Of a stretch of 64,000 bases of DNA, positions 18,020 through 59,330 are shown one piece after another (position 1 is the stretch's first letter; every line of letters starts with the position of its first letter). Both the position numbers and the translations under genes were made by a program. The notes beneath the pieces were generated by a model that saw nothing but the letters and a program-made list of their open reading frames with translations, searched no databases and had not been told where the DNA came from. The stretch is from Escherichia phage vB_Eco_QOTSP. Where the stretch lies: sequence record OY720014; one strand, 5' to 3'.

Positions 18020-18829
18020 TTAGAAACGAGATGCGACTTTCGCATATACACTTACAATATCTTCTGCACCTTGTGCAGCTTTATCTTCTACAGCTTCAGT
18101 GACGAAATTCAGTCCGGCTGCTTCAGTATCAGGAGTATTTATACTCTCAGTAATAGTGCTTTCATCTTTATTAGATTTCTTCACCATTTCTACGATTGCA
18201 CTCAATTTACTTGAGAATGCATCTGAATAATCCATACCTTCGACCAGAGCAGAGACTTTTTCTTTTTGAGACTCAGTCAGATCTTTAGTACTTTCGCTCA
18301 ATGCCACTTCACGCTGCACATAATTGATATATGCGTCACGCTTATTGAGTTCTTCGAACAGACGAGCTGATTCTTCTTTATGTTCTTGCAGCTCTTCTTC
18401 CATTTCAGCTACAACATCAACTGATTCTTCTGGAACAACAACGTTGTGTTCAACAAAGAGCTCTTTTAATCCACCAAGCATGGATTCAAACAGTTCGGCT
18501 TTGATGCCTTTATCAACTGCTAATTTATTTTCAGCGAGCCATTCTTTCGCAAGATGGTCAATGAATTTAGAAGCTTGCTCAGCGATTTTCTTCTCAGCTT
18601 TTTCTTCGGCTTCTTCTTTATTTTTTTCTACTTCTTCTTCTGCTTTTTCAGCAATTTTAGCGATATGAGATTCAGCTAATTTAACGGCGTGCTGCTTGAC
18701 GGTAGCTTCGAATACAGTGCCGAAAGTTTCTTTTGCTTCCGGAGAAATATTAACTGATTCGAAAATACTATCAAGAGCAACGGAAGCATCAATTTTTTGC
18801 GCTTCAGCAATCAGTTGTTCTTTAAGCAT
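18020..18829 (-). CDS. 22: prohead scaffold protein gp22
   Basis: 269 aa, acidic coiled-coil. Confidence 0.9.
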   Translation of the reverse strand: MLKEQLIAEAQKIDASVALDSIFESVNISPEAKETFGTVFEATVKQHAVKLAESHIAKIAEKAEEEVEKNKEEAEEKAEKKIAEQASKFIDHLAKEWLAENKLAVDKGIKAELFESMLGGLKELFVEHNVVVPEESVDVVAEMEEELQEHKEESARLFEELNKRDAYINYVQREVALSESTKDLTESQKEKVSALVEGMDYSDAFSSKLSAIVEMVKKSNKDESTITESINTPDTEAAGLNFVTEAVEDKAAQGAEDIVSVYAKVASRF

Positions 18830-18855: not shown

Positions 18856-18863
18856 ATATTTAT
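18856..18863 (-). promoter_or_regulatory. late promoter TATAAATA upstream of gene 22
   Basis: Exact TATAAATA on minus strand about 27 bp from start codon. Confidence 0.6.
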
Positions 18864-19498
18864 AACGCTTTTTTCATGGCCTCTGCGAGAGCCATATAGG
18901 CGTCATCGGCACTTGTATCGGCTTCCGCCGTCTGTGATTCGGTAATTTCCTTAGGAGTTACCCATGCATCTGGAGCACTTGGACCCCATACTGCATCAAC
19001 ACCTACAGTTAATTTGAATCCTTCGTTTACGATACGATAACCTTTATTTGTGTCAGTCAATGAACCTAATCCACGAGAAGAAACTCCTGGAATCCATCCG
19101 GCACGAATATTAGCTGCTAATTTATCTCCAGGACCATGGTCACCTTCAATAACACGAGCTCGTCCGTATACGTCATTTCCTTTCCACCACATATCTTCTA
19201 TAATGATAGCGGCTTGCATCGGGTCAACATTAGCGCGTGGAGGATGATTTAATTCTCCGAGAGCTTGTTTAGTTAAAACTTGCTCATTGATATAGTCTTT
19301 TACCGCTTTTTCTAATATGCGTTTTGGATAAAGACGTTTATTTCTATTGACGACTTCCGCTTGCATGAATATTCCTTCGATGTATAAACCAGGTTTTAAA
19401 CCTAGGTCTTTTCCATCATGAGATTCAAGCATTGGCACGCCATCAATAATTTCGCCAGGTTGACCCCAAGTTTCAATTAGTAATTGGGGTTCATTCAT
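18860..19498 (-). CDS. 21: prohead core protease gp21
   Basis: 212 aa, recognisable T4 gp21. Confidence 0.9.
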   Translation of the reverse strand: MNEPQLLIETWGQPGEIIDGVPMLESHDGKDLGLKPGLYIEGIFMQAEVVNRNKRLYPKRILEKAVKDYINEQVLTKQALGELNHPPRANVDPMQAAIIIEDMWWKGNDVYGRARVIEGDHGPGDKLAANIRAGWIPGVSSRGLGSLTDTNKGYRIVNEGFKLTVGVDAVWGPSAPDAWVTPKEITESQTAEADTSADDAYMALAEAMKKAL

Positions 19499-45060: not shown

Positions 45061-45513
45061 ATGGCATATTCTGGAAAATGGGTTCCTAAAAATATATCAA
45101 AATATAGAGGTGACCCTAAAAAAATTACGTATAGATCAAATTGGGAAAAATTCTTTTTTGAATGGTTAGATAAAAATCCAGAAATTATTGCATGGGGTAG
45201 TGAAACAGCAGTAATTCCTTATTTTTGTAATGCAGAAGGGAAAAAACGTAGATACTTCATGGATATTTGGATGAAAGATTCTTCTGGACAAGAATTTTTT
45301 ATTGAAATAAAACCTAAAAAAGAAACACAACCACCAGTTAAACCAGCACATCTAACAACTGCAGCGAAGAAAAGATTTATGAATGAAATTTATACATATT
45401 CCGTTAATACCGACAAATGGAAAGCAGCGCAAGCTTTAGCTGAAAAGCGTGGAATAAAATTTAGAATTCTAACAGAAGATGGATTACGAGCTCTTGGCTT
45501 TAAGGGGGCATAA
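45061..45513 (+). CDS. 4: head completion protein gp4
   Basis: 150 aa. Confidence 0.85.
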
Positions 45514-46337
45514 TGGCTATTTTTCAAATAATTAATGAAAGCACTCCCCAAGTTCCAAAGGTTAAGCAATCATTAAACGAAAAGAAATGGATTCAGATAG
45601 GTCTTGAATATAAAAAGGCCAAAGCAAAAGGAATGACAGGAAAGCAATTTGCTGAAGAAAGAGGAATCAAATACTCTACGTTTACTTCAGCAATGTCAAA
45701 ATATGCTTCAGGAATTAAAACGGCTGAAAAGATTCAAAAGCTTGAATCAAAACCAATGAATAAACTCAATAAGCAAGAAAGACAACTGCTTATGATAAAT
45801 TCATTCAGACAAACATTGCGTGATAAAATTCGTAATGAAGGTGCAGCAATTAATAATAAAACCAGAAAGTGGTTTGCTGAAACTATTAAGCAAGTAAAAG
45901 GACATAAAGTTGTTCGCCCGCAGCCGGGACGAATATATGCTTTTGCTTATGATGCTAAACACAAGGAAACTCTTCCTTACTGGGATAAATTTCCTTTGAT
46001 AATTTACCTTGGTTTAGGTAAGCATAACTTAATGTACGGATTAAACTTGCACTATATTCCACCTAAAGCTCGTCAGCAATTCCTAGAAGAGCTTTTAAAG
46101 CAATATGCAAATACACCTACTATTACTAATAAAACGAAATTAAAAATTGATTGGAGTCAAGTGAAAGGATTTAGGGGTGCAGACCAAATGATTAAGGCAT
46201 ATATACCTGGTAATATTATGGGTAGCCTTGTTGAAATCGCCCCGAAAGACTGGGCGAACGTTGTGTTGATGCCACTTCAGCAGTTCGTTTCAAAAGGAAA
46301 ACGTTTCTCTGCAAACAAAGTCTGGTCAAATATTTAA
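45513..46337 (+). CDS. 2: DNA end protector protein gp2
   Basis: 274 aa. Confidence 0.85.
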
Positions 46338-47023: not shown

Positions 47024-47748
47024 ATGAAACTAATCTTTTTAAGCGGTGTAAAGCGTAGTGGAAAAGATACTACTGCTGATTTTATCATGAGCAATTATTC
47101 TGCAGTTAAATACCAACTTGCTGGTCCTATTAAGGATGCATTGGCTTATGCATGGGGCGTATTTGCAGAAAACACTGACTATCCTTGCTTAACTCGTAAA
47201 GAGTTTGAAGGAATTGACTATGATCGTGAGACTAATTTAAATCTGACTAAATCAGAAGTAATCACGATTATGGAACAAGCATTTTGCTATCTTAACGGTA
47301 AAAGCCCAATTAAGGGTGTGTTTGTTTTTGATGACGAAGGACAAGAATCAGTTAATTCTGTAGCATTTAACAAGATTATTGACGTTATAAATAATATTGA
47401 AGATCAATGGTCAGTCCGTCGTCTGATGCAAGCCCTAGGTACGGATTTGATTGTTAATAACTTCGACCGCATGTACTGGGTAAAATTATTTGCTTTAGAT
47501 TATCTTGATAAATTTAACTCAGGTTATGATTATTATATCGTTCCTGATACTCGTCAAGATCATGAAATGGATGCGGCTAGGGCGATGGGTGCTACAGTAA
47601 TTCATGTAGTTCGTCCTGGTCAAAAATCCAATGATACACATATTACAGAAGCTGGATTGCCAATTCGTGATGGCGATTTAGTAATTACAAACGATGGTTC
47701 TCTTGAAGAACTTTTTTCTAAAATTAAAAATACACTAAAGGTACTATA

Positions 47749-47749
<1 letters not shown>
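47024..47749 (+). CDS. 1: dNMP kinase gp1
   Basis: 241 aa from ATG with GAGG RBS; P-loop GVKRSGKDT. Confidence 0.85.
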
Positions 47750-48446
<697 letters not shown>

Positions 48447-48458
48447 TTTCACAAAGTT

Positions 48459-48488
48459 GTTTACATACTGATGAGGTAGTGATACTAT
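48459..48488 (+). promoter_or_regulatory. T4-type early promoter with stem-loop (PeSL-like cassette), copy 1
   Basis: GTTTACA -35, TACTAT -10 inside 9-bp inverted repeat GATGAGGTA/TACCTCATC. Confidence 0.6.
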
Positions 48489-48519
48489 TACCTCATCAAA
48501 ATTAATTAGGAAAATAAAA

Positions 48520-48777
48520 ATGAAAACTTTCAAAGAGTTTGCTACAGAAACTATTATCACTGAATCTTCTCATGGTATGGAAGTAAAGCTTGGAATGGCT
48601 TTAGCTGAAGCTGAGCGTCTTTTTTCTCGTATTAAAGAACTTGCTGCTGCAGTCGATCCTTCATCTTTTAAAGGAGACCAAACTAAAGTTAAAGCACTTT
48701 TAGCATTATGCTCTGATGCAGGAGAAATCGCTAAGAACGGTTCTAAGATGAAGAAACGATTAGAAGATTTAAAATAA
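48520..48777 (+). CDS. small protein with capsid-targeting-like N-terminus (MKTFKEFATE)
   Basis: 85 aa ORF with RBS, downstream of early promoter cassette. Confidence 0.6.
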   Translation: MKTFKEFATETIITESSHGMEVKLGMALAEAERLFSRIKELAAAVDPSSFKGDQTKVKALLALCSDAGEIAKNGSKMKKRLEDLK

Positions 48778-48789
48778 TTTCACAAAGTT

Positions 48790-48819
48790 GTTTACACGGG
48801 GTTTTAGTAGTGATACTAT
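48790..48819 (+). promoter_or_regulatory. early promoter/stem-loop cassette, copy 2
   Basis: Same 30-bp upstream block (GATTTAAAATAATTTCACAAAGTTGTTTACA) as copy 1. Confidence 0.6.
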
Positions 48820-48855
48820 TACCCTATCAAAACAAATGTGAAATTGGAGAATAAA

Positions 48856-49089
48856 ATGAAAACGTATCAAGAATTTATTGCTGAAGCTGCTGATGTAAAA
48901 GTTGAGTTTATTTACATTGGCAAGAAAGATAAAATGGGCGAAATGCCTCATGGAGTTCTTCGTGATGCATTAGATAATTTCGGTCAACTCGCCGCAGAAG
49001 ATTACGGTGATAAAATTGTTGTTACTGGTCCGGCTGCAGTTATTGAAAAATGGGCAGCAGAAAATAAATCAATTTTTCGTAAAAAATGA
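48856..49089 (+). CDS. ipI: internal protein I-like head protein (CTS MKTYQEFIAE)
   Basis: 77 aa from ATG with GGAG RBS; canonical T4 capsid targeting sequence; ipI locus position. Confidence 0.65.
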   Translation: MKTYQEFIAEAADVKVEFIYIGKKDKMGEMPHGVLRDALDNFGQLAAEDYGDKIVVTGPAAVIEKWAAENKSIFRKK

Positions 49090-49119
49090 GTTTACTTTTA
49101 GATAGGGTAGTGATACTAT
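49090..49119 (+). promoter_or_regulatory. early promoter/stem-loop cassette, copy 3
   Basis: GTTTAC ... GATAGGGTA-GTGATACTAT-TACCCTATC. Confidence 0.6.
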
Positions 49120-49147
49120 TACCCTATCAACTACTGAGGAGAATAAA

Positions 49148-49333
49148 ATGAAACGTTGTGAATTAATTCGAAATGTTGCTATTGCAATTTCTGCTTCCGC
49201 TTTTAGTTTTTCAATGTTTGTTGGATTTATATGCGGATTATTAACTACAGCAGAAAATGTGTTTTCACTTGTAGTAGCATTTTTAATTGGTTTAATTGCT
49301 ATCGTTATGGATAAAATTTCTAAAGGTGAATAA
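49148..49333 (+). CDS. small hydrophobic protein (61 aa, predicted membrane)
   Basis: GAGGAG RBS; two hydrophobic segments. Confidence 0.55.
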   Translation: MKRCELIRNVAIAISASAFSFSMFVGFICGLLTTAENVFSLVVAFLIGLIAIVMDKISKGE

Positions 49334-49744
49334 ATGAGTATTAACGAATATTATGTTTATGCCGGGGATTATGCAAATCCTTCTCATTTTGAAGGTAATT
49401 TAATACCTGATAAAGTTTTTAATACTCCTTTTGAAGCGTGGAGTTGGATTGAAAGTAAAAATGGATTTTCTTACCGTTATGTTGAAGTAACTGATTGGAG
49501 AGGAACTAAATATCCTAAAGACCATTATTACGTAAATCCATCTAAGGTAAATTTTCTTTTATTCGCAGGTGATAATTATTATCCTTGTGGTGGATATGAT
49601 GATTTAATTGCGTATGCTGAAACAGAAGATAAACTGCGTGATATCATTAAAGAAAATGAAAATAAACCGGATTATGGTTCCAATCGCTTTGACTGGTGGC
49701 AAATCGTAAATGCCCATACTCATGCTATCGTTGATAGAGGCTGA
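49334..49744 (+). CDS. hypothetical protein (136 aa)
   Basis: ORF coupled to previous. Confidence 0.6.
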   Translation: MSINEYYVYAGDYANPSHFEGNLIPDKVFNTPFEAWSWIESKNGFSYRYVEVTDWRGTKYPKDHYYVNPSKVNFLLFAGDNYYPCGGYDDLIAYAETEDKLRDIIKENENKPDYGSNRFDWWQIVNAHTHAIVDRG

Positions 49745-49767
49745 CAATGATTCTTTATGCTAAAGTA
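49742..49767 (+). repeat. 26-bp direct repeat copy A (TGACAATGATTCTTTATGCTAAAGTA), includes remnant start MILYAKV
   Basis: 24/26 identical to 50197..50222. Confidence 0.8.
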
Positions 49768-49818
49768 CTACCTTATAGGAATGATATTGCTTAAATTAAT
49801 ATTGAGGTAGCTGAGACT

Positions 49819-50199
49819 ATGAAATTAATTAAATCGGGTGGAACCAGATGGGTACTACTAACACGTAAGTATGCTATTAAGTTCCCTATCCCCAAGACAT
49901 GGAAACACTTCGTGCAGGGTATGCTCAGCAATCTTACAGAAGGTCAGTGGAAGGGGTATGATAACAAGCACCTATGCCCAATAGCATACTCAAACAGATT
50001 TGGTCTCATGGTTGTGATGCACAAAGCAGAGCCAGTTGAGGATAAGGAGCTTTTTAAATCTGATTTGCAAAAGCTCTATAATGATGTTGATGGTGATGAA
50101 TGCAGAACGCTTGACCGTGATTTCTTTGAGTATGATGCCTTTCCAAAGAACTTTGGCTACTACAAAGGTAGATTGGTCAAGATAGACTACGGAGTGTGA
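49819..50199 (+). CDS. hypothetical protein (126 aa) inside repeat-flanked insertion
   Basis: ORF with RBS; Gly-rich loop and AIK motif near N-terminus, KIDYG at C-terminus. Confidence 0.55.
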   Translation: MKLIKSGGTRWVLLTRKYAIKFPIPKTWKHFVQGMLSNLTEGQWKGYDNKHLCPIAYSNRFGLMVVMHKAEPVEDKELFKSDLQKLYNDVDGDECRTLDRDFFEYDAFPKNFGYYKGRLVKIDYGV

Positions 50200-50222
50200 T
50201 AATGATTCTTTATGCAAAAGTA
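50197..50222 (+). repeat. 26-bp direct repeat copy B (TGATAATGATTCTTTATGCAAAAGTA)
   Basis: Matches copy A; includes ATG of next gene. Confidence 0.8.
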
Positions 50223-50492
50223 TCATCCATTGAAAATGGATATAAATATGATCAAGAAGCAGCTAAAGCCTTGATTGATGATTATGGCATTTTAACATGT
50301 TTTGAAGTTGAAAAGGTTTACATTGACCGTTCATCTTCTCAGGTTAAATTAGTAAAAGAAGACCGTAAATTTAATACAGTAAATTTTGATTTCTTTATTG
50401 AAACAGAAAAAGGTCCTCTTGAATATGATATTTTCAAGAATCCTTTGGGTCTTGAATGTATTCAGAAAACGTATATTAATGCAGCGTGGTGA
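50202..50492 (+). CDS. hypothetical protein (96 aa, MILYAKVSS...)
   Basis: ORF starting in repeat copy B. Confidence 0.55.
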   Translation: MILYAKVSSIENGYKYDQEAAKALIDDYGILTCFEVEKVYIDRSSSQVKLVKEDRKFNTVNFDFFIETEKGPLEYDIFKNPLGLECIQKTYINAAW

Positions 50493-50494
50493 AA

Positions 50495-51089
50495 ATGAAT
50501 ATTTGTTTAGGTACTACAATTCCGCAGGGTTACGTAATTGATGTCACTACCTGGGAAAATGATGGTGACAACTATAAAACTAAAACACTGTTTGGCGTAG
50601 AAGAGCATGAAATCTTACAATTCCAATATCTTTTAAAGAAGTTTAAAAGCAGACATTCTAGTACTAAAGCTGAACGTTATTGTGGTAATGGCTTGTTCAG
50701 CGAGCAATCGCTTTTTATTTATGAATACTTGGTTGAAGGACTGTTCTCAGAACAACTTTATCCAGAATTCATTAAAAAGGTAGCAATCGCTTTTTATTTA
50801 TGAATACTTGGTTGAAGGACTGTTCTCAGAACAACTTTATCCAGAATTCATTAAAAAGGTCTTTGACATAGAAGTTGACCTTGGTAATAAATCCGAAGAA
50901 GACGAAGAACGTGTATTTGACTTATTCTTTGTGAATGGTAATAAAGTGCTTGAAGGACTTATTAATATTTTAGGCAGTGCTTCTGAGTATTATGATTATG
51001 ATTTTTTGCGTGTAGTTGAGAGTGTTAAATACTCTTATATAGAAAAAGAAATTGTTTTGCCGACCGTTAAAATGTTTAATTTGCTTTAA
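50495..51089 (+). pseudogene. hypothetical gene split by a 79-bp perfect tandem duplication (fragments 50495..50803 and 50808..51089)
   Basis: Peptide LVEGLFSEQLYPEFIKKV encoded twice; duplication length not a multiple of 3. Confidence 0.7.
50703..50860 (+). repeat. perfect tandem duplication 2 x 79 bp
   Basis: 50703..50781 identical to 50782..50860. Confidence 0.9.
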
Positions 51090-51175: not shown

Positions 51176-51248
51176 TGGGAATTAGCCAAGTTGGTAAGGC
51201 ACTGGATTTTGATTCCAGGATGCAAAGGTTCGAGTCCTTTATTCCCAG
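51176..51248 (+). tRNA. tRNA-Gln (UUG)
   Basis: Cloverleaf: acceptor TGGGAAT/ATTCCCA, anticodon loop TTTTGAT, T-arm AAAGG-TTCGAGT-CCTTT. Confidence 0.85.
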
Positions 51249-51249
51249 C

Positions 51250-51336
51250 GCGAGAATGGTCAAATTGGTAAAGGCACAGCACTTAAAATGCTGCGGAATG
51301 ATTTCCTTGTGGGTTCGAGTCCCACTTCTCGCACCA
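51250..51336 (+). tRNA. tRNA-Leu (UAA), long variable arm, encoded CCA
   Basis: Acceptor GCGAGAA/TTCTCGC, anticodon loop CTTAAAA, T-arm GTGGG-TTCGAGT-CCCAC. Confidence 0.85.
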
Positions 51337-51341
51337 AATTT

Positions 51342-51415
<74 letters not shown>

Positions 51416-51461
51416 ATTTATGACTCGTCGTGAGACGCTCAGTTCTTTATTAGGGACTGAT

Positions 51462-52070
51462 ATGCATTTTTATCTTTATAAAATAACAAATAAAATTAAT
51501 AATAAAATTTATATTGGTGTGCATTCTACCGAAAATTTAGATGATGGATATATGGGTTCTGGTAAATTATTAAAAAGAGCCCAAGATAAATATGGTATAG
51601 AAAATTTTTCTAAAGAAATATTAGAGTATTTTGACGATAAAGAATCTATGCTTGAAGCCGAGAAAAATATTGTCACAGAAGAGTTTTTAAATAGACCAGA
51701 TGTGTATAATTTAAAACTTGGAGGTGAAGGTGGATGGGATCATATAAATAATTATCCTATGACAGATCAGCAACGCGAATTAATTTCATTGGGTGTTAAA
51801 AAGGCGCATTCTAACGGAAAATTAAAAGGATGGTCTTCAAATGGATTAATGAAGAATGGCTTTGCTGGTAAAACTCATTCTCAAGAAGCTAAACGTAAAA
51901 TAGCAAAAGCAAACGAAGCAAAAGTTTCTGCGGATGAAAGAAAAAGAAGAATAGAAATTTCTAAATTATATGATTTTTCTAAACGTGGCGAATTGTCTAA
52001 ATATGCTAAGCATATTGGCGTAAGTCATACTCAAGCAAAAAGAATTCTAAATCAAATTAACAATATATAA
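51462..52070 (+). CDS. segB: GIY-YIG homing endonuclease (SegB-like) inside the tRNA cluster
   Basis: GIY-YIG motif YLYKITNKINNKIYIGVHS; start taken at ATG 51462 (ORF track start 51420 overlaps tRNA-Gly). Confidence 0.8.
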   Translation: MHFYLYKITNKINNKIYIGVHSTENLDDGYMGSGKLLKRAQDKYGIENFSKEILEYFDDKESMLEAEKNIVTEEFLNRPDVYNLKLGGEGGWDHINNYPMTDQQRELISLGVKKAHSNGKLKGWSSNGLMKNGFAGKTHSQEAKRKIAKANEAKVSADERKRRIEISKLYDFSKRGELSKYAKHIGVSHTQAKRILNQINNI

Positions 52071-52076
52071 ATATTT

Positions 52077-52166
52077 GGAGGCGTGGCAGAGTGGTTTAAT
52101 GCACCGGTCTTGAAAACCGGCAGTCGCTCCGGCGACTCATAGGTTCAAATCCTATCGCCTCCGCCA
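52077..52166 (+). tRNA. tRNA-Ser (UGA), long variable arm
   Basis: Acceptor GGAGGCG/CGCCTCC, anticodon loop CTTGAAA, CCA encoded. Confidence 0.85.
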
Positions 52167-52172
52167 GTTTTT

Positions 52173-52248
52173 GCTGATTTAGCTCAGTAGGTAGAGCACC
52201 TCACTTGTAATGAGGACGTCGGCGGTTCGATTCCGTCAATCAGCACCA
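52173..52248 (+). tRNA. tRNA-Thr (UGU)
   Basis: Acceptor GCTGATT/AATCAGC, anticodon loop CTTGTAA, T-arm GGCGG-TTCGATT-CCGTC. Confidence 0.85.
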
Positions 52249-52249
52249 A

Positions 52250-52324
52250 GGCCCTGTAGCTGGAAGGTTCAAGCAAGCGACTCATAATCGCCAGATGGTG
52301 GTTCAATTCCACCCAGGGCCACCA
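52250..52324 (+). tRNA. tRNA-Ile (CAU anticodon; Met-like by sequence)
   Basis: Acceptor GGCCCTG/CAGGGCC, anticodon loop CTCATAA. Confidence 0.8.
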
Positions 52325-52333
52325 AATTAATTT

Positions 52334-52420
52334 GGGGAGTTATCCCGTAGAGGTAGCGGTGTGGACTGTAAATTCATTGTCATTGCGACTCGGGTGGTTC
52401 GACTCCACCACTCCCCACCA
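52334..52420 (+). tRNA. tRNA-Tyr (GUA), long variable arm
   Basis: Acceptor GGGGAGT/ACTCCCC, anticodon loop CTGTAAA, T-arm GGTGG-TTCGACT-CCACC. Confidence 0.75.
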
Positions 52421-52424
52421 ATTT

Positions 52425-52499
52425 GGATGTGTAGCTCAATGGCAGAGCGATCGCCTGTTAAGCGATTGGTTATAGGTTCGAATCCTATCACGTCCGCCA
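52425..52499 (+). tRNA. tRNA-Asn (GUU)
   Basis: Acceptor GGATGTG/CACGTCC, anticodon stem ATCGC/GCGAT, loop CTGTTAA. Confidence 0.8.
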
Positions 52500-52503
52500 A
52501 ATT

Positions 52504-52519
52504 TGTGACAACTGTCACA
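52504..52519. promoter_or_regulatory. perfect TGTGA-N6-TCACA palindrome (CRP-consensus-like) in tRNA cluster spacer
   Basis: TGTGACAACTGTCACA seen directly; function unknown. Confidence 0.3.
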
Positions 52520-52613
52520 TTAATATCTACTTGACGCGATTATAGGGGTTGAACTGATCACTCTTCTCTTAATTTCGTGTGAAGACATCTTGATTGTTGG
52601 AGTAGGTATTAAT

Positions 52614-52689
52614 GTGGCCGTAGTTCAGTTGGTAGAACTCGAGATTGTGATTCTCGTAGTCATGGGTTCGACTCCCATCGGTCACCCCA
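52614..52689 (+). tRNA. tRNA-His (GUG), no encoded G-1
   Basis: Acceptor GTGGCCG/CGGTCAC, anticodon stem CGAGA/TCTCG, loop TTGTGAT. Confidence 0.8.
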
Positions 52690-52693
52690 ATTA

Positions 52694-52769
52694 CGGGGCA
52701 TAGCTCAGAAGGAAGAGCAAGGACCTTCTAAGTCCTAGGTCGTAGGTTCGATCCCTACTGCCTCGACCA
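52694..52769 (+). tRNA. tRNA-Arg (UCU)
   Basis: Acceptor CGGGGCA/TGCCTCG, anticodon stem AGGAC/GTCCT, loop CTTCTAA. Confidence 0.85.
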
Positions 52770-58430: not shown

Positions 58431-58847
58431 ATGACTCGTATTAATTTGACTTTAGTATCTGAACTTGCTGATCAACATTTAATCGCAGAATACCGTGAAT
58501 TGCCGCGTGTTTTTGGTATAGTTCGTAAGCATGTGGCAAACGGTAAGCGCGTTAAAGATTTTAAAATATCTTCCGAGTTTATTTTAGGTTCTGGTCATGT
58601 TACGTTCTTTTACGATAAGTTAGAATTTTTGCGAAAGCGTCAATCGGACATTATAACGGAATGCTTAAAACGCGGGTTCAGTATAAAAGATACTGAAGTT
58701 CCTGACATCAGCGATATTCCAGTAGAATGGAAAAATGATTATAATCCATGCAAATCAGCTATTAAATTGAGTCAACAACGACTTGATGAAAAAATTTTAA
58801 TGAAACCACATTGGTATAAGTATTACGGTAAAAATATTTACATTTAA
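58431..58847 (+). CDS. denV: endonuclease V (pyrimidine dimer DNA glycosylase)
   Basis: 138 aa, [17 protein letters not shown]... recognisable as T4 DenV. Confidence 0.95.
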
Positions 58848-58856
58848 AGGAAACAT

Positions 58857-59330
58857 ATGAAAACATATCAAGAATTTATCGCTGAAGCAGCTATTAATTC
58901 TCAAATTATTGCTGAATCTTTTACTGATCTTTTGAAATTTAAAAAAGGTCAAAAAATCACTGCTGTATTGGATGATGGTACAGAAGTTGAGATGGATGTA
59001 CAGGGATATAATTATGCAGTAGATGGAAAACTGTATAATAAATCTCATGCTAAATTTGATTCATTTGACGACTTTGTTAATACAGTTGAAGATGAAAAAA
59101 CTCGTAGATCCATTGCAACTGGTGATGCTAAGGTTCTTATGGCACATGGTCATGAACGCATTCGCGCTAAACAGAATAAAATGGGTGAAGATAATTTCGC
59201 ATTAGTTGGTTATCAATCTGGTAAACAAACTTATGGCTATCAACGTACTGCTACCATGTATAATAAAAATGGTAAAATTGCCTTTGTGAATAGTAAAGGT
59301 TCTATTCAGTACGTTAAATCGTTCAAATAA
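58857..59330 (+). CDS. internal protein-like head protein (CTS MKTYQEFIAEAA), 157 aa
   Basis: Canonical capsid targeting sequence; position near e as for T4 ipII/ipIII. Confidence 0.65.
   Translation: MKTYQEFIAEAAINSQIIAESFTDLLKFKKGQKITAVLDDGTEVEMDVQGYNYAVDGKLYNKSHAKFDSFDDFVNTVEDEKTRRSIATGDAKVLMAHGHERIRAKQNKMGEDNFALVGYQSGKQTYGYQRTATMYNKNGKIAFVNSKGSIQYVKSFK

What the first reader, a model, noticed from the sequence alone, without database searches (positions are those of the whole stretch)
48520..49089. Two small CTS-bearing ORFs at the ipI-type locus under repeated early-promoter cassettes
ORF 48520 (MKTFKEFATE...) and ORF 48856 (MKTYQEFIAEAA...) both start with capsid-targeting-like sequences, and each is preceded by a near-identical promoter cassette. 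The ipI locus is known to be hypervariable among T-even phages, with different internal proteins thought to match different host restriction systems. The first ORF's weaker CTS (ATE rather than I/L-x-E) may not be cleaved.
Basis: partly seen in the sequence, partly recalled or inferred. Interest (0 to 1): 0.5.

Follow-up and report, generated by a model that had tools for sequence, protein, structure and literature searches.

The report
Known T-even internal proteins Ip5 and Ip6
The two small genes are the already named internal head proteins Ip5 and Ip6 of T4-like phages, arranged exactly as in phage T6, so the finding is real but ordinary; only their cellular targets remain unknown.

Summary
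ORFs 48520-48777 (85 aa) and 48856-49089 (77 aa) start with T4-type capsid-targeting sequences. They sit between 57B (Acb1) and trna.4, the slot that holds ipI in T4. Each is preceded by a copy of a promoter-plus-hairpin cassette, and a third copy precedes trna.4.

Neither gene is new. ORF1 is Ip5 (annotated in T2, RB14, RB70, PP01). ORF2 is Ip6 (annotated in T6, VR7, VR25). T6 has the identical order 57B-Ip5-Ip6-trna.4, and about 160 sequenced phages carry the whole block.

Ip5 has a canonical I-T-E at residues 13-15. E15 is invariant in the family and aligns with the cleavage residue E19 of T4 IPI. E10 is lysine in T2.

Comparison with T4, T2 and RB14 puts the module boundaries in the shared N-terminal coding sequence and in the conserved cassette core. 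This fits the published model of IP shuffling.

The mature proteins have no sequence or informative fold relatives. Ip5 is predicted as a helical hairpin and Ip6 as a small ferredoxin-like fold. The most likely role is injected inhibitors of host first-response nucleases. No target is known.

The parts
47991..48446 (+). 57B homologue (Acb1 anti-CBASS phosphodiesterase). It is the conserved left border of the IP locus, and its last codons (..DDLK*) belong to the 95-nt repeat.
   Evidence: Pfam Acb1, E = 2.6e-60. 98% nt identity to T4 through this gene. Repeat D1.
48459..48499 (+). Cassette 1: early-type promoter (-35 TTTACA 48460-48465, 17-nt spacer, TG-extended -10 TACTAT 48483-48488) embedded in a 13-bp hairpin (48469-48498).
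   Evidence: dG -17.4, z -3.6. Identical to the T4 57B-ipI cassette.
48520..48777 (+). ip5 gene (Ip5, 85 aa). Propeptide/CTS is residues 1-15 (48520-48564), with predicted gp21 cleavage after I13-T14-E15. Predicted mature Ip5* is 70 aa (48565-48774), pI 9.2.
   Evidence: phrog_3499 'internal head protein', E = 7.8e-50. 96-100% identical to annotated ip5 of T2, RB14, PP01 and RB70. E15 invariant. AF2 helical hairpin, pLDDT 74. pI.
48790..48830 (+). Cassette 2: promoter (-35 48791-48796, -10 48814-48819) with a weaker inner hairpin (48798-48825). In this phage there is also an outer stem, 48778-48843.
   Evidence: dG -22.9, z -4.2.
48856..49089 (+). ip6 gene (Ip6, 77 aa). Predicted cleavage is after I8-A9-E10. 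Predicted mature Ip6* is 67 aa (48886-49086), pI 6.8.
   Evidence: phrog_8111 'internal virion protein', E = 6.4e-52. 96-100% identical to T6 Ip6 and ECML-134; annotated ip6 in VR7, VR25 and JK1. AF2 beta-alpha-beta-beta-alpha-beta fold, pLDDT 85.
49090..49130 (+). Cassette 3: promoter (-35 TTTACT 49091-49096, -10 TACTAT 49114-49119) in a 12-bp hairpin (49101-49128). It drives trna.4.
   Evidence: dG -16.4. The stem differs from cassette 1 by GA/TC to AG/CT compensatory changes.
49148..49333 (+). trna.4 homologue (61-aa predicted membrane protein). It is the conserved right border of the IP locus.
   Evidence: phrog_1692. 98% nt identity to T4 from 49110 onward. T4, T2 and T6 annotation.
18860..19498 (-). 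gp21 prohead serine protease, the enzyme expected to remove the two propeptides.
   Evidence: Pfam Peptidase_S77, E = 1.5e-111.
18020..18829 (-). gp22 scaffolding core protein, the structure to which CTS-bearing proteins are targeted.
   Evidence: Pfam T4_CASP, E = 1.7e-89. PMC9026906 for the role.
58857..59330 (+). Third CTS-bearing internal protein of this genome (157 aa, MKTYQEFIAE|AAINS..), at the second IP locus just after e and denV.
   Evidence: motif scan. phrog_3155 'internal virion protein', E = 1.5e-101. Pfam DUF7412.

Best explanation
The segment is the ipI-type internal-protein locus of a Tequatrovirus in its 'T6 configuration': 57B(Acb1) - [cassette] - ip5 - [cassette] - ip6 - [cassette] - trna.4. 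Each gene encodes a small protein with an N-terminal propeptide (MKTFKEF...ITE in Ip5, MKTYQEFIAE in Ip6). The propeptide targets the protein to the gp22 scaffolding core of the prohead. The gp21 protease then removes it, after E15 in Ip5 and after E10 in Ip6. The mature 70- and 67-residue proteins stay in the DNA-filled head and are injected with the DNA. The most likely function is to neutralise a specific host 'first-response' nuclease, as T4 Ip1, Ip2 and Ip3 each do for one GmrSD variant. The repeated cassettes combine a T4 early-type promoter with a hairpin. They give each module its own transcription start. They also provide short homologies, as do the shared CTS codons, at which whole IP modules are swapped between phages. 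Shown here: the identity of the genes, the motifs, the cassette structure, the recombination breakpoints, and the presence of gp21 and gp22. Inferred: packaging, cleavage, injection and anti-defence function. My estimates: about 0.85 for packaging and cleavage; about 0.5 for an anti-restriction role of at least one of the two.
For: Identity: PHROG internal-protein families at E = 1e-50 and 1e-52. tblastn finds annotated ip5 in T2, RB14 and PP01 and annotated ip6 in VR7, VR25, JK1 and T6 at 75-100% identity. UniRef names include 'Ip5, RB70' and 'Ip6'. The same slot holds ipI in T4. CTS: F4/F7 in Ip5 and Y4/F7 in Ip6 match the targeting positions mapped in IPIII, and I8/E10 match the processing positions (PMC9026906). 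Ip5 E15 is invariant and aligns with IPI E19. gp21, gp22 and gp67 are encoded in the same window. Cassettes. Breakpoints: against T4, homology stops at 48543 (codon 8 of ip5) and resumes at 49110 (the -10/loop core of cassette 3). Against T2 it stops at 48892 and resumes at 49090. Against RB14 it stops at 48877 and resumes at 49107. Chimeric cassettes (left arm of one type, right arm of another) occur in T2 and RB14. Published model: IP-associated promoter/stem-loop elements and more than 30 IP variants (PMC2839356, citing Repoila 1994 and Comeau 2007). Function by analogy: Ip1, Ip2 and Ip3 each block one GmrSD subtype (PMC12373910). The adjacent gene is the anti-CBASS Acb1.
Against: No direct evidence in the held literature that Ip5 or Ip6 is in virions or is cleaved; the primary paper (Repoila 1994) could not be read. 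Function: T6 carries Ip5 and Ip6, T2 carries Ip5, and both phages are restricted by GmrSD-ECOR21 and GmrSD-ECOR17. ip4-10 tested against 15 GmrSD groups gave no reproducible inhibition (PMC12373910, section 10 and Suppl. Fig. 9). That their 'ip5' and 'ip6' are these proteins rests on the name only, because the sequences are not in the held supplements. Ip5 has two further (L/I)-x-E motifs, at E30 and E40, inside predicted helices. These could be cleaved and would give a different mature product. The hairpins lack a U-tract, so they are not canonical terminators (0 found). They are lost in chimeric cassettes, so the hairpin is not indispensable.
Confidence: 0.8

Rival explanations
1. Ip5* and Ip6* are packaged and injected, but they inhibit defences other than GmrSD-type type IV restriction. 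Candidates are other nucleases or sensors that act at the moment of DNA entry, or in the case of Ip5* a protein-protein target bound by its helical hairpin.
For: T6 and T2 carry these genes yet remain sensitive to three characterised GmrSD systems, and ip4-10 showed no reproducible activity on 15 GmrSD groups (PMC12373910). The mature parts are unrelated in sequence to IPI and to each other. Their predicted folds also differ from each other. The neighbour Acb1 shows that the locus is not restricted to anti-restriction functions.
Against: All three IPs with known targets hit GmrSD-family enzymes. GmrSD diversity is very large, and only 8 systems in that screen were active against T-evens, so an untested GmrSD subtype remains the simplest expectation.
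Confidence: 0.3
2. They are mainly structural or physical head components: small proteins that accompany, neutralise or organise the packaged DNA, or assist core assembly. They would have no specific host target.
For: Ip5* is basic (pI 9.2), like the classical T4 IPs, which are described as basic, present at about 300 copies each and DNA-associated (PMC9026906). IPIII loss affects head morphogenesis (PMC9026906).
Against: Ip6* is neutral (pI 6.8). Gene content at this slot varies freely (ipI alone; ip5+ip7; ip5+ipI; ip5+ip6), which is not expected of a structural requirement. T4 IP genes are non-essential, and all three now have specific targets (PMC12373910).
Confidence: 0.12
3. One or both proteins are not packaged. 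They would act as ordinary early cytoplasmic proteins, with the N-terminal similarity being a by-product of recombination at the 5' ends.
For: They are under early-type promoters. No late promoter motif lies directly upstream; the nearest TATAAATA is at 47386, inside gene 1. The shared 5' codons are also recombination sites.
Against: The CTS is conserved at the protein level at exactly the positions that matter (aromatic at 4, F7, (I/L)-x-E), even in 53%- and 75%-identical homologues whose DNA has diverged. T4 ipI has the same promoter cassette and is a proven virion protein (PMC3012670). Read-through from the late-type motif at 47386 is possible because the hairpins are not canonical terminators.
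Confidence: 0.05

Closest known systems
Ip5 and Ip6 of phage T6 (MH550421), and Ip5 of T2, RB14 and RB70
   Same: Same genes, 96-98% protein identity. Same order 57B-Ip5-Ip6-trna.4-trna.3 and the same three cassettes (96.9% nt identity over 47900-49767).
   Different: Only microvariation. The ip6 leader of this phage (and of ADUt) has a GGAG ribosome-binding site and an extra outer stem that T6 and HP3 lack. Downstream of trna.3 this phage carries extra ORFs.
T4 IPI (Ip1), inhibitor of GmrSD-CT596
   Same: Same genomic slot. Identical upstream cassette and leader. Identical first seven residues, MKTFKEF. Propeptide ending in I-T-E. Similar size and pI of the mature protein.
T4 IPII and IPIII (Ip2, Ip3), inhibitors of GmrSD-ECOR21 and GmrSD-ECOR17
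   Same: Ip6 carries the 10-residue propeptide MKTYQEFIAE. Same class of small injected proteins.
   Different: Different locus (e/denV region). Unrelated mature sequences. T6, which carries Ip6, is restricted by both target enzymes (PMC12373910).
PeSL (promoter-early stem-loop) cassettes of RB49 and phi1
   Same: A composite promoter + hairpin element flanks small accessory genes and serves as the crossover site for modular shuffling (PMC2839356, PMC4122927). Here the breakpoints fall in the cassette core.
   Different: Arbiol et al. state that the T-even IP elements are analogues, not homologues. They use T4 early-type promoters and AT-richer stems without polyG/polyC. Here the -10 element lies inside the hairpin loop or stem, and no U-tract follows.

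Membership tests
T-even internal head proteins (IP class) | N-terminal capsid-targeting sequence MKT(Y/F)(K/Q)EF, with an aromatic residue at 4 and F at 7 | tested here: met
   Ip5 MKTFKEF and Ip6 MKTYQEF. Positions 4 and 7 are the targeting determinants (PMC9026906).
T-even internal head proteins (IP class) | gp21 cleavage motif (L/I)-x-E closing a 10-19 residue propeptide | tested here: met
   Ip6 has I8-A9-E10. Ip5 has I13-T14-E15, invariant and aligned to IPI E19. Motif definition from PMC9026906.
T-even internal head proteins (IP class) | Encoded at one of the two IP loci (57B-trna.4, or the e/denV region) | tested here: met
   Between 57B/Acb1 and trna.4.
T-even internal head proteins (IP class) | Genome encodes the gp21 protease and the gp22 scaffolding core | tested here: met
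   Peptidase_S77 and T4_CASP hits at 18860-19498(-) and 18020-18829(-).
T-even internal head proteins (IP class) | Physical presence of the processed protein in virions, and injection into the host | not testable with these tools
   Needs virion proteomics or injection assays. No such data for Ip5 or Ip6 in the held literature.
Ip5 orthologue group | Full-length sequence similarity to the named Ip5 proteins | tested here: met
   96-100% over 85 aa to T2, RB14, PP01 and RB70 Ip5. phrog_3499 hit covers the full length.
Ip6 orthologue group | Full-length sequence similarity to the named Ip6 proteins | tested here: met
   96% to T6 Ip6 and 75% to VR7/VR25 ip6. The BFVD top hit is VR7 Ip6, TM 0.95.
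IPI (Ip1) family / GmrSD inhibitors | Sequence or fold similarity of the mature part to IPI* | tested here: not met
IPI (Ip1) family / GmrSD inhibitors | Inhibition of a GmrSD-type enzyme | not testable with these tools
   Published screens were negative or irreproducible for ip4-10, and T6 is sensitive to three GmrSD systems (PMC12373910).
PeSL-type mobile regulatory cassettes | Repeated promoter + stem-loop element flanking accessory ORFs, with crossovers inside the element | tested here: met
   They work like PeSLs, but PMC2839356 classes the T-even IP elements as analogues, not homologues.
PeSL-type mobile regulatory cassettes | Stem-loop acts as a transcription terminator | tested here: inconclusive
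   Stable hairpins but no U-tract, and 0 terminator-like sites in the scan. Covariation amounts to a single GA/TC to AG/CT exchange.

The most novel reading that the evidence does not exclude
Ip5* (a basic helical hairpin) and/or Ip6* (a small ferredoxin-like domain) are injected inhibitors of a host defence that is not among the GmrSD subtypes tested so far. It could even be a non-GmrSD first-response system. Together with the adjacent Acb1, this would make the 57B-trna.4 segment a mixed anti-defence island whose modules are exchanged through the promoter-hairpin cassettes.
Probability: 0.35. Interest if true: 0.5.

Novelty: already known. Interest (0 to 1): 0.15.

Why it matters
As a discovery it matters little. 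The genes, their names, the hypervariable locus and the cassette-mediated shuffling have been in the literature since 1994, and the block is present in at least 160 sequenced phages.

There are three residual points of value.

1. The predicted processing site of Ip5 is now pinned to E15 by family conservation. That gives an exact mass and N-terminus to look for in virions.

2. Ip5 and Ip6 are among the IPs still without a target. They are common in therapeutic-type Tequatroviruses, so finding their targets would explain part of the host-range differences between T4-, T2- and T6-like phages.

3. The breakpoint map is a clean worked example of module exchange at 10-30 nt homologies.

Tried and rejected
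- **Chance ORFs:** rejected. The motif occurs only three times in six frames, each time at an ATG at an IP locus.
- **Homology of the mature parts to IPI or to each other:** none.
- **PDB sequence search:** nothing significant.
- **Exhaustive phmmer of mature Ip6 against 1.84 billion representatives:** only two true relatives. A third hit, to a 491-aa repeat protein (P0018), looks spurious.
- **Word-indexed homologue searches:** gave only shallow families.
- **Rfam:** no family in 47700-49900.
- **Generic sigma-70 scan:** not enriched overall (11 found against 9.2 expected). The case for the promoters therefore rests on the repeated T4-type cassette, not on that scan.
- **Intrinsic terminators:** none.
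- **Covariation test of the hairpin:** suggestive only. Two adjacent pairs change together, which is effectively one event.
- **Literature:**
  - Repoila 1994, Bair 2007, Rifat 2008 and Miller 2003 are not held.
  - Searches on 'Ip5/Ip6' return inositol-phosphate papers.
  - The sequences of ip4-10 used by Silas et al. are not in the held supplements.
- **Source phage:** the window is not identical to any record. The best matches are about 98% (AndreasVesalius, vB_Eco_Some, RB18).

Full report
**Setting.** The window is a T4-like (Tequatrovirus) genome read opposite to the T4 map. The gene order is:
- gp2 (45513-46337), gp3, and dNMP kinase
- 57A (47749-47991)
- 57B/Acb1 (47991-48446)
- the two ORFs of the finding
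- homologues of trna.4 (49148-49333) and trna.3 (49334-49744)
- further small ORFs, then a tRNA cluster from 51176

No database record is identical. The best matches are about 98% identical over 18 kb (AndreasVesalius, vB_Eco_Some, RB18).

**Observation.** Both ORFs are present as described.
- ORF1 (48520-48777) encodes 85 aa beginning MKTFKEFATETIITESSHG.
- ORF2 encodes 77 aa beginning MKTYQEFIAEAADV, read from ATG 48856. A GGAG lies 7 nt upstream.
- The mechanical ORF caller, and some database entries, start ORF2 at an upstream GTG or ATG. That would bury the targeting sequence and is probably wrong.

A six-frame scan of the 64 kb for MK[TS][YF][KQ]EF gives three hits only. All are at ATG starts: these two ORFs and a 157-aa ORF at 58857, just after e and denV, which is the second IP locus.

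Three copies of one cassette lie at 48459-48499, 48790-48830 and 49090-49130.
- The first two copies extend to 95 nt. They include the last codons of the upstream genes (..DDLK* of 57B and ..EDLK* of ORF1) and the block ATTTCACAAAGTT.
- The exact core GTGATACTATTACC occurs three times in the window, only here.
- Each copy reads (G)TTTAC, a 17-nt spacer, then TGnTACTAT.
- Each folds into a hairpin of -17.4, -22.9 or -16.4 kcal/mol. These are well below the values for shuffled sequences. The -10 element sits in the loop and upper stem.

**Identity.**
- ORF1 matches phrog_3499 ('internal head protein') at E = 7.8e-50. ORF2 matches phrog_8111 ('internal virion protein') at E = 6.4e-52.
- tblastn finds ORF1 at 96-100% identity in about 250 phages. 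It is annotated ip5 in T2, RB14, PP01 and ime09. UniRef also lists 'Ip5, phage RB70'.
- ORF2 is found in 245 records and is annotated ip6 in VR7, VR25, JK1, fHoEco02 and T6.
It aligns at 96.9% across 47900-49767.
- About 160 records carry the whole 941-nt block.

The two ORFs are therefore the known genes ip5 and ip6.

**The Ip5 cleavage site.** T4 IPI reads MKTFKEFTSTTTPVSTITE|ATLT. Its mature form has 76 residues (PMC3012670), which places cleavage after I17-T18-E19.

Ip5 has I13-T14-E15.
- In the alignment of Ip5 homologues, I13, T14 and E15 are invariant among close relatives. E10 is K in T2, and the segment is deleted in another variant.
- A 53%-identical homologue in VR25 has L-N-E at the same position.
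- E15 is one of only 11 invariant columns when T4 IPI is included, and it aligns with IPI E19.

The gp21 motif is (L/I)-x-E, IP propeptides are 10-19 residues long, and positions 4 and 7 direct targeting (PMC9026906). Ip5 therefore has a canonical propeptide of 15 residues, and the 'weak ATE' reading is wrong.

Ip6 has I8-A9-E10 in the propeptide MKTYQEFIAE. I recall this as the exact IPII/IPIII propeptide, but I did not compare it with the T4 sequences here.

The predicted mature products are Ip5* (70 aa, 7.5 kDa, pI 9.2) and Ip6* (67 aa, 7.4 kDa, pI 6.8).

One caveat: Ip5 has further (L/I)-x-E motifs at E30 and E40, inside predicted helices.

The protease gp21, the scaffold gp22 and gp67 are all encoded in the same window.

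**Modular structure and breakpoints.** The slot between 57B and trna.4 holds different genes in different phages:

| Phage | Content of the slot |
|---|---|
| T4 | ipI |
| T2 | ip5 + ip7 |
| RB14 | ip5 + ipI |
| T6 and this phage | ip5 + ip6 |
| VR25 | a hypothetical gene + ip9 + another IP + ip6 |

A diverged ip5 sits at the other IP locus, between e and denV, in VR25. One search shows a similar ~50%-identical Ip5 match overlapping the lysozyme gene annotation in many other records.

Pairwise BLASTN places the edges of homology as follows:

| Compared with | Homology stops at | Homology resumes at |
|---|---|---|
| T4 | 48543 (codon 8 of ip5) | 49110 (-10 core of cassette 3) |
| T2 | 48892 | 49090 |
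| RB14 | 48877 | 49107 |

Twenty cassettes from seven genomes fall into three left-arm types and two right-arm types.
- Matched combinations give perfect 12-13 bp stems: GATGAGGTA/TACCTCATC after 57B, and GATAGGGTA/TACCCTATC before trna.4.
- T2 cassette 2 and RB14 cassette 2 are chimeras, with the left arm of one type and the right arm of another. Their arms lack that complementarity on inspection.

The two stem variants differ by a compensatory GA/TC to AG/CT exchange. Because that is effectively one event, the covariation support is only suggestive.

This is the picture published for the T-even IP loci. Arbiol et al. describe 'PeSL-like' promoter/stem-loop elements that may drive plasticity at the two IP loci and confine IP shuffling to them. 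They also cite more than 30 IP variants (PMC2839356, citing Repoila 1994 and Comeau 2007).

**What the proteins look like.**
- The mature parts show no similarity to IPI or to each other.
- There is no PDB sequence relative.
- Mature Ip6 has only two true relatives among 1.84 billion cluster representatives.
- AlphaFold models give Ip5 as two long helices (17-44 and 54-84; pLDDT 74).
- They give Ip6 as a beta-alpha-beta-beta-alpha-beta domain (pLDDT 85).
- BFVD returns Ip6 itself and nothing for Ip5.
- No Rfam family lies in the region.

**Mechanism.**

*Shown:* the gene identity, the CTS and cleavage motifs, the presence of the targeting and processing machinery, the promoter-hairpin cassettes, and the recombination junctions.

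*Inferred from the T4 paradigm (PMC9026906, PMC3012670):*
- The propeptide directs the proteins to the scaffolding core.
- gp21 removes the propeptide.
- The mature proteins stay in the head and are injected with the DNA.

Supply for prohead assembly may come from continued transcription, or from read-through from the late-type motif TATAAATA at 47386. Read-through is plausible because the hairpins are not canonical terminators. This step is also an inference.

**Function.** The best guess is inhibition of a host nuclease that acts on incoming glucosyl-hmC DNA. Ip1, Ip2 and Ip3 each block one GmrSD subtype, and the authors propose the same for the other IPs (PMC12373910).

Two results argue against any of the tested enzymes being the target (PMC12373910):
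- T2 and T6 are restricted by GmrSD-ECOR21 and GmrSD-ECOR17.
- ip4-10 gave no reproducible inhibition of 15 GmrSD groups.

That their ip5 and ip6 are these proteins rests on the names only. The target may therefore be an untested GmrSD subtype or a different defence.

**Verdict.** The feature is already known and common, so interest is low.

Noticed in passing
window 58857-59330 (+): A third CTS-bearing internal protein (157 aa, MKTYQEFIAE|AAINS; phrog_3155, Pfam DUF7412) lies at the second IP locus, directly after denV (58431-58847). It has only a 9-nt gap upstream and no promoter-hairpin cassette of its own. A second I-A-E lies at residues 18-20.
   Followed up: partly
window 47991-48446 (+): The gene immediately upstream of ip5 is 57B, now known as the anti-CBASS nuclease Acb1 (Pfam E = 2.6e-60). 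The IP modules therefore sit next to a proven anti-defence gene. Many database records still call it 'RNA ligase'.
   Followed up: partly
window 50486-50803 and 50808-51089 (+): Two adjacent ORFs (105 and 93 aa) match the N- and C-terminal halves of one PHROG family (phrog_2290, 165 aa). Both contain the peptide VEGLFSEQLYPEFIKKV. It looks like a gene split by a short tandem duplication or frameshift.
   Followed up: no
window 51176-52769 (+): The tRNA cluster has 10 genes (Gln, Leu, Gly | Ser, Thr, Met(CAT), Tyr, Asn, His, Arg). A GIY-YIG homing-endonuclease gene (51420-52070, segB-like) sits between tRNA-Gly and tRNA-Ser, where the relative ADUt has tRNA-Pro. No tRNA-Pro was found in this window.
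   Followed up: no
window 49819-50199 (+): An extra 126-aa ORF (phrog_4301, function unknown) lies between the trna.3 homologue and the ORF at 50196-50492 (phrog_2023). T4, T6 and ADUt have no ORF annotated between trna.3 and trna.2. This is another variable spot just right of the IP locus.
   Followed up: no
window 48838-48855; database proteins P0006 and P0009; HP3 gp110: Several database entries start Ip6 at an upstream GTG or ATG (MKLENK-/MEIK-MKTYQEF). That would place the capsid-targeting sequence internally. The start at ATG 48856, with GGAG 7 nt upstream, is the plausible one.
   Followed up: partly
records OQ446694.1 (phage Killian) and MT782071.1 (JN02), under the Ip5 match: Ip5 homologues are annotated there as 'MazF family toxin-antitoxin system protein' and 'sulfurtransferase'. 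These are probable annotation errors.
   Followed up: no
window 48846-48849 and 49138-49141 (+): The ribosome-binding sites of ip6 and trna.4 are GGAG within the repeat GGAGAATAAAATGAAA. From my own knowledge, GGAG in early-gene Shine-Dalgarno sequences is the target of the T4 RegB endoribonuclease. ip5 uses AGGAAA instead. T6 and HP3 have a different ip6 leader without GGAG.
   Followed up: no
window 47386-47393 (+): A perfect T4 late-promoter motif, TATAAATA, lies inside the dNMP kinase gene, upstream of 57A-57B-ip5-ip6. It is a possible source of late read-through transcription for the internal proteins.
   Followed up: no
window 48604-48609 and 48634-48639 (Ip5 residues L28-A29-E30 and I38-K39-E40): Two additional (L/I)-x-E motifs lie within the predicted first helix of mature Ip5. 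If they are accessible to gp21, the mature protein would be shorter than predicted.
   Followed up: no
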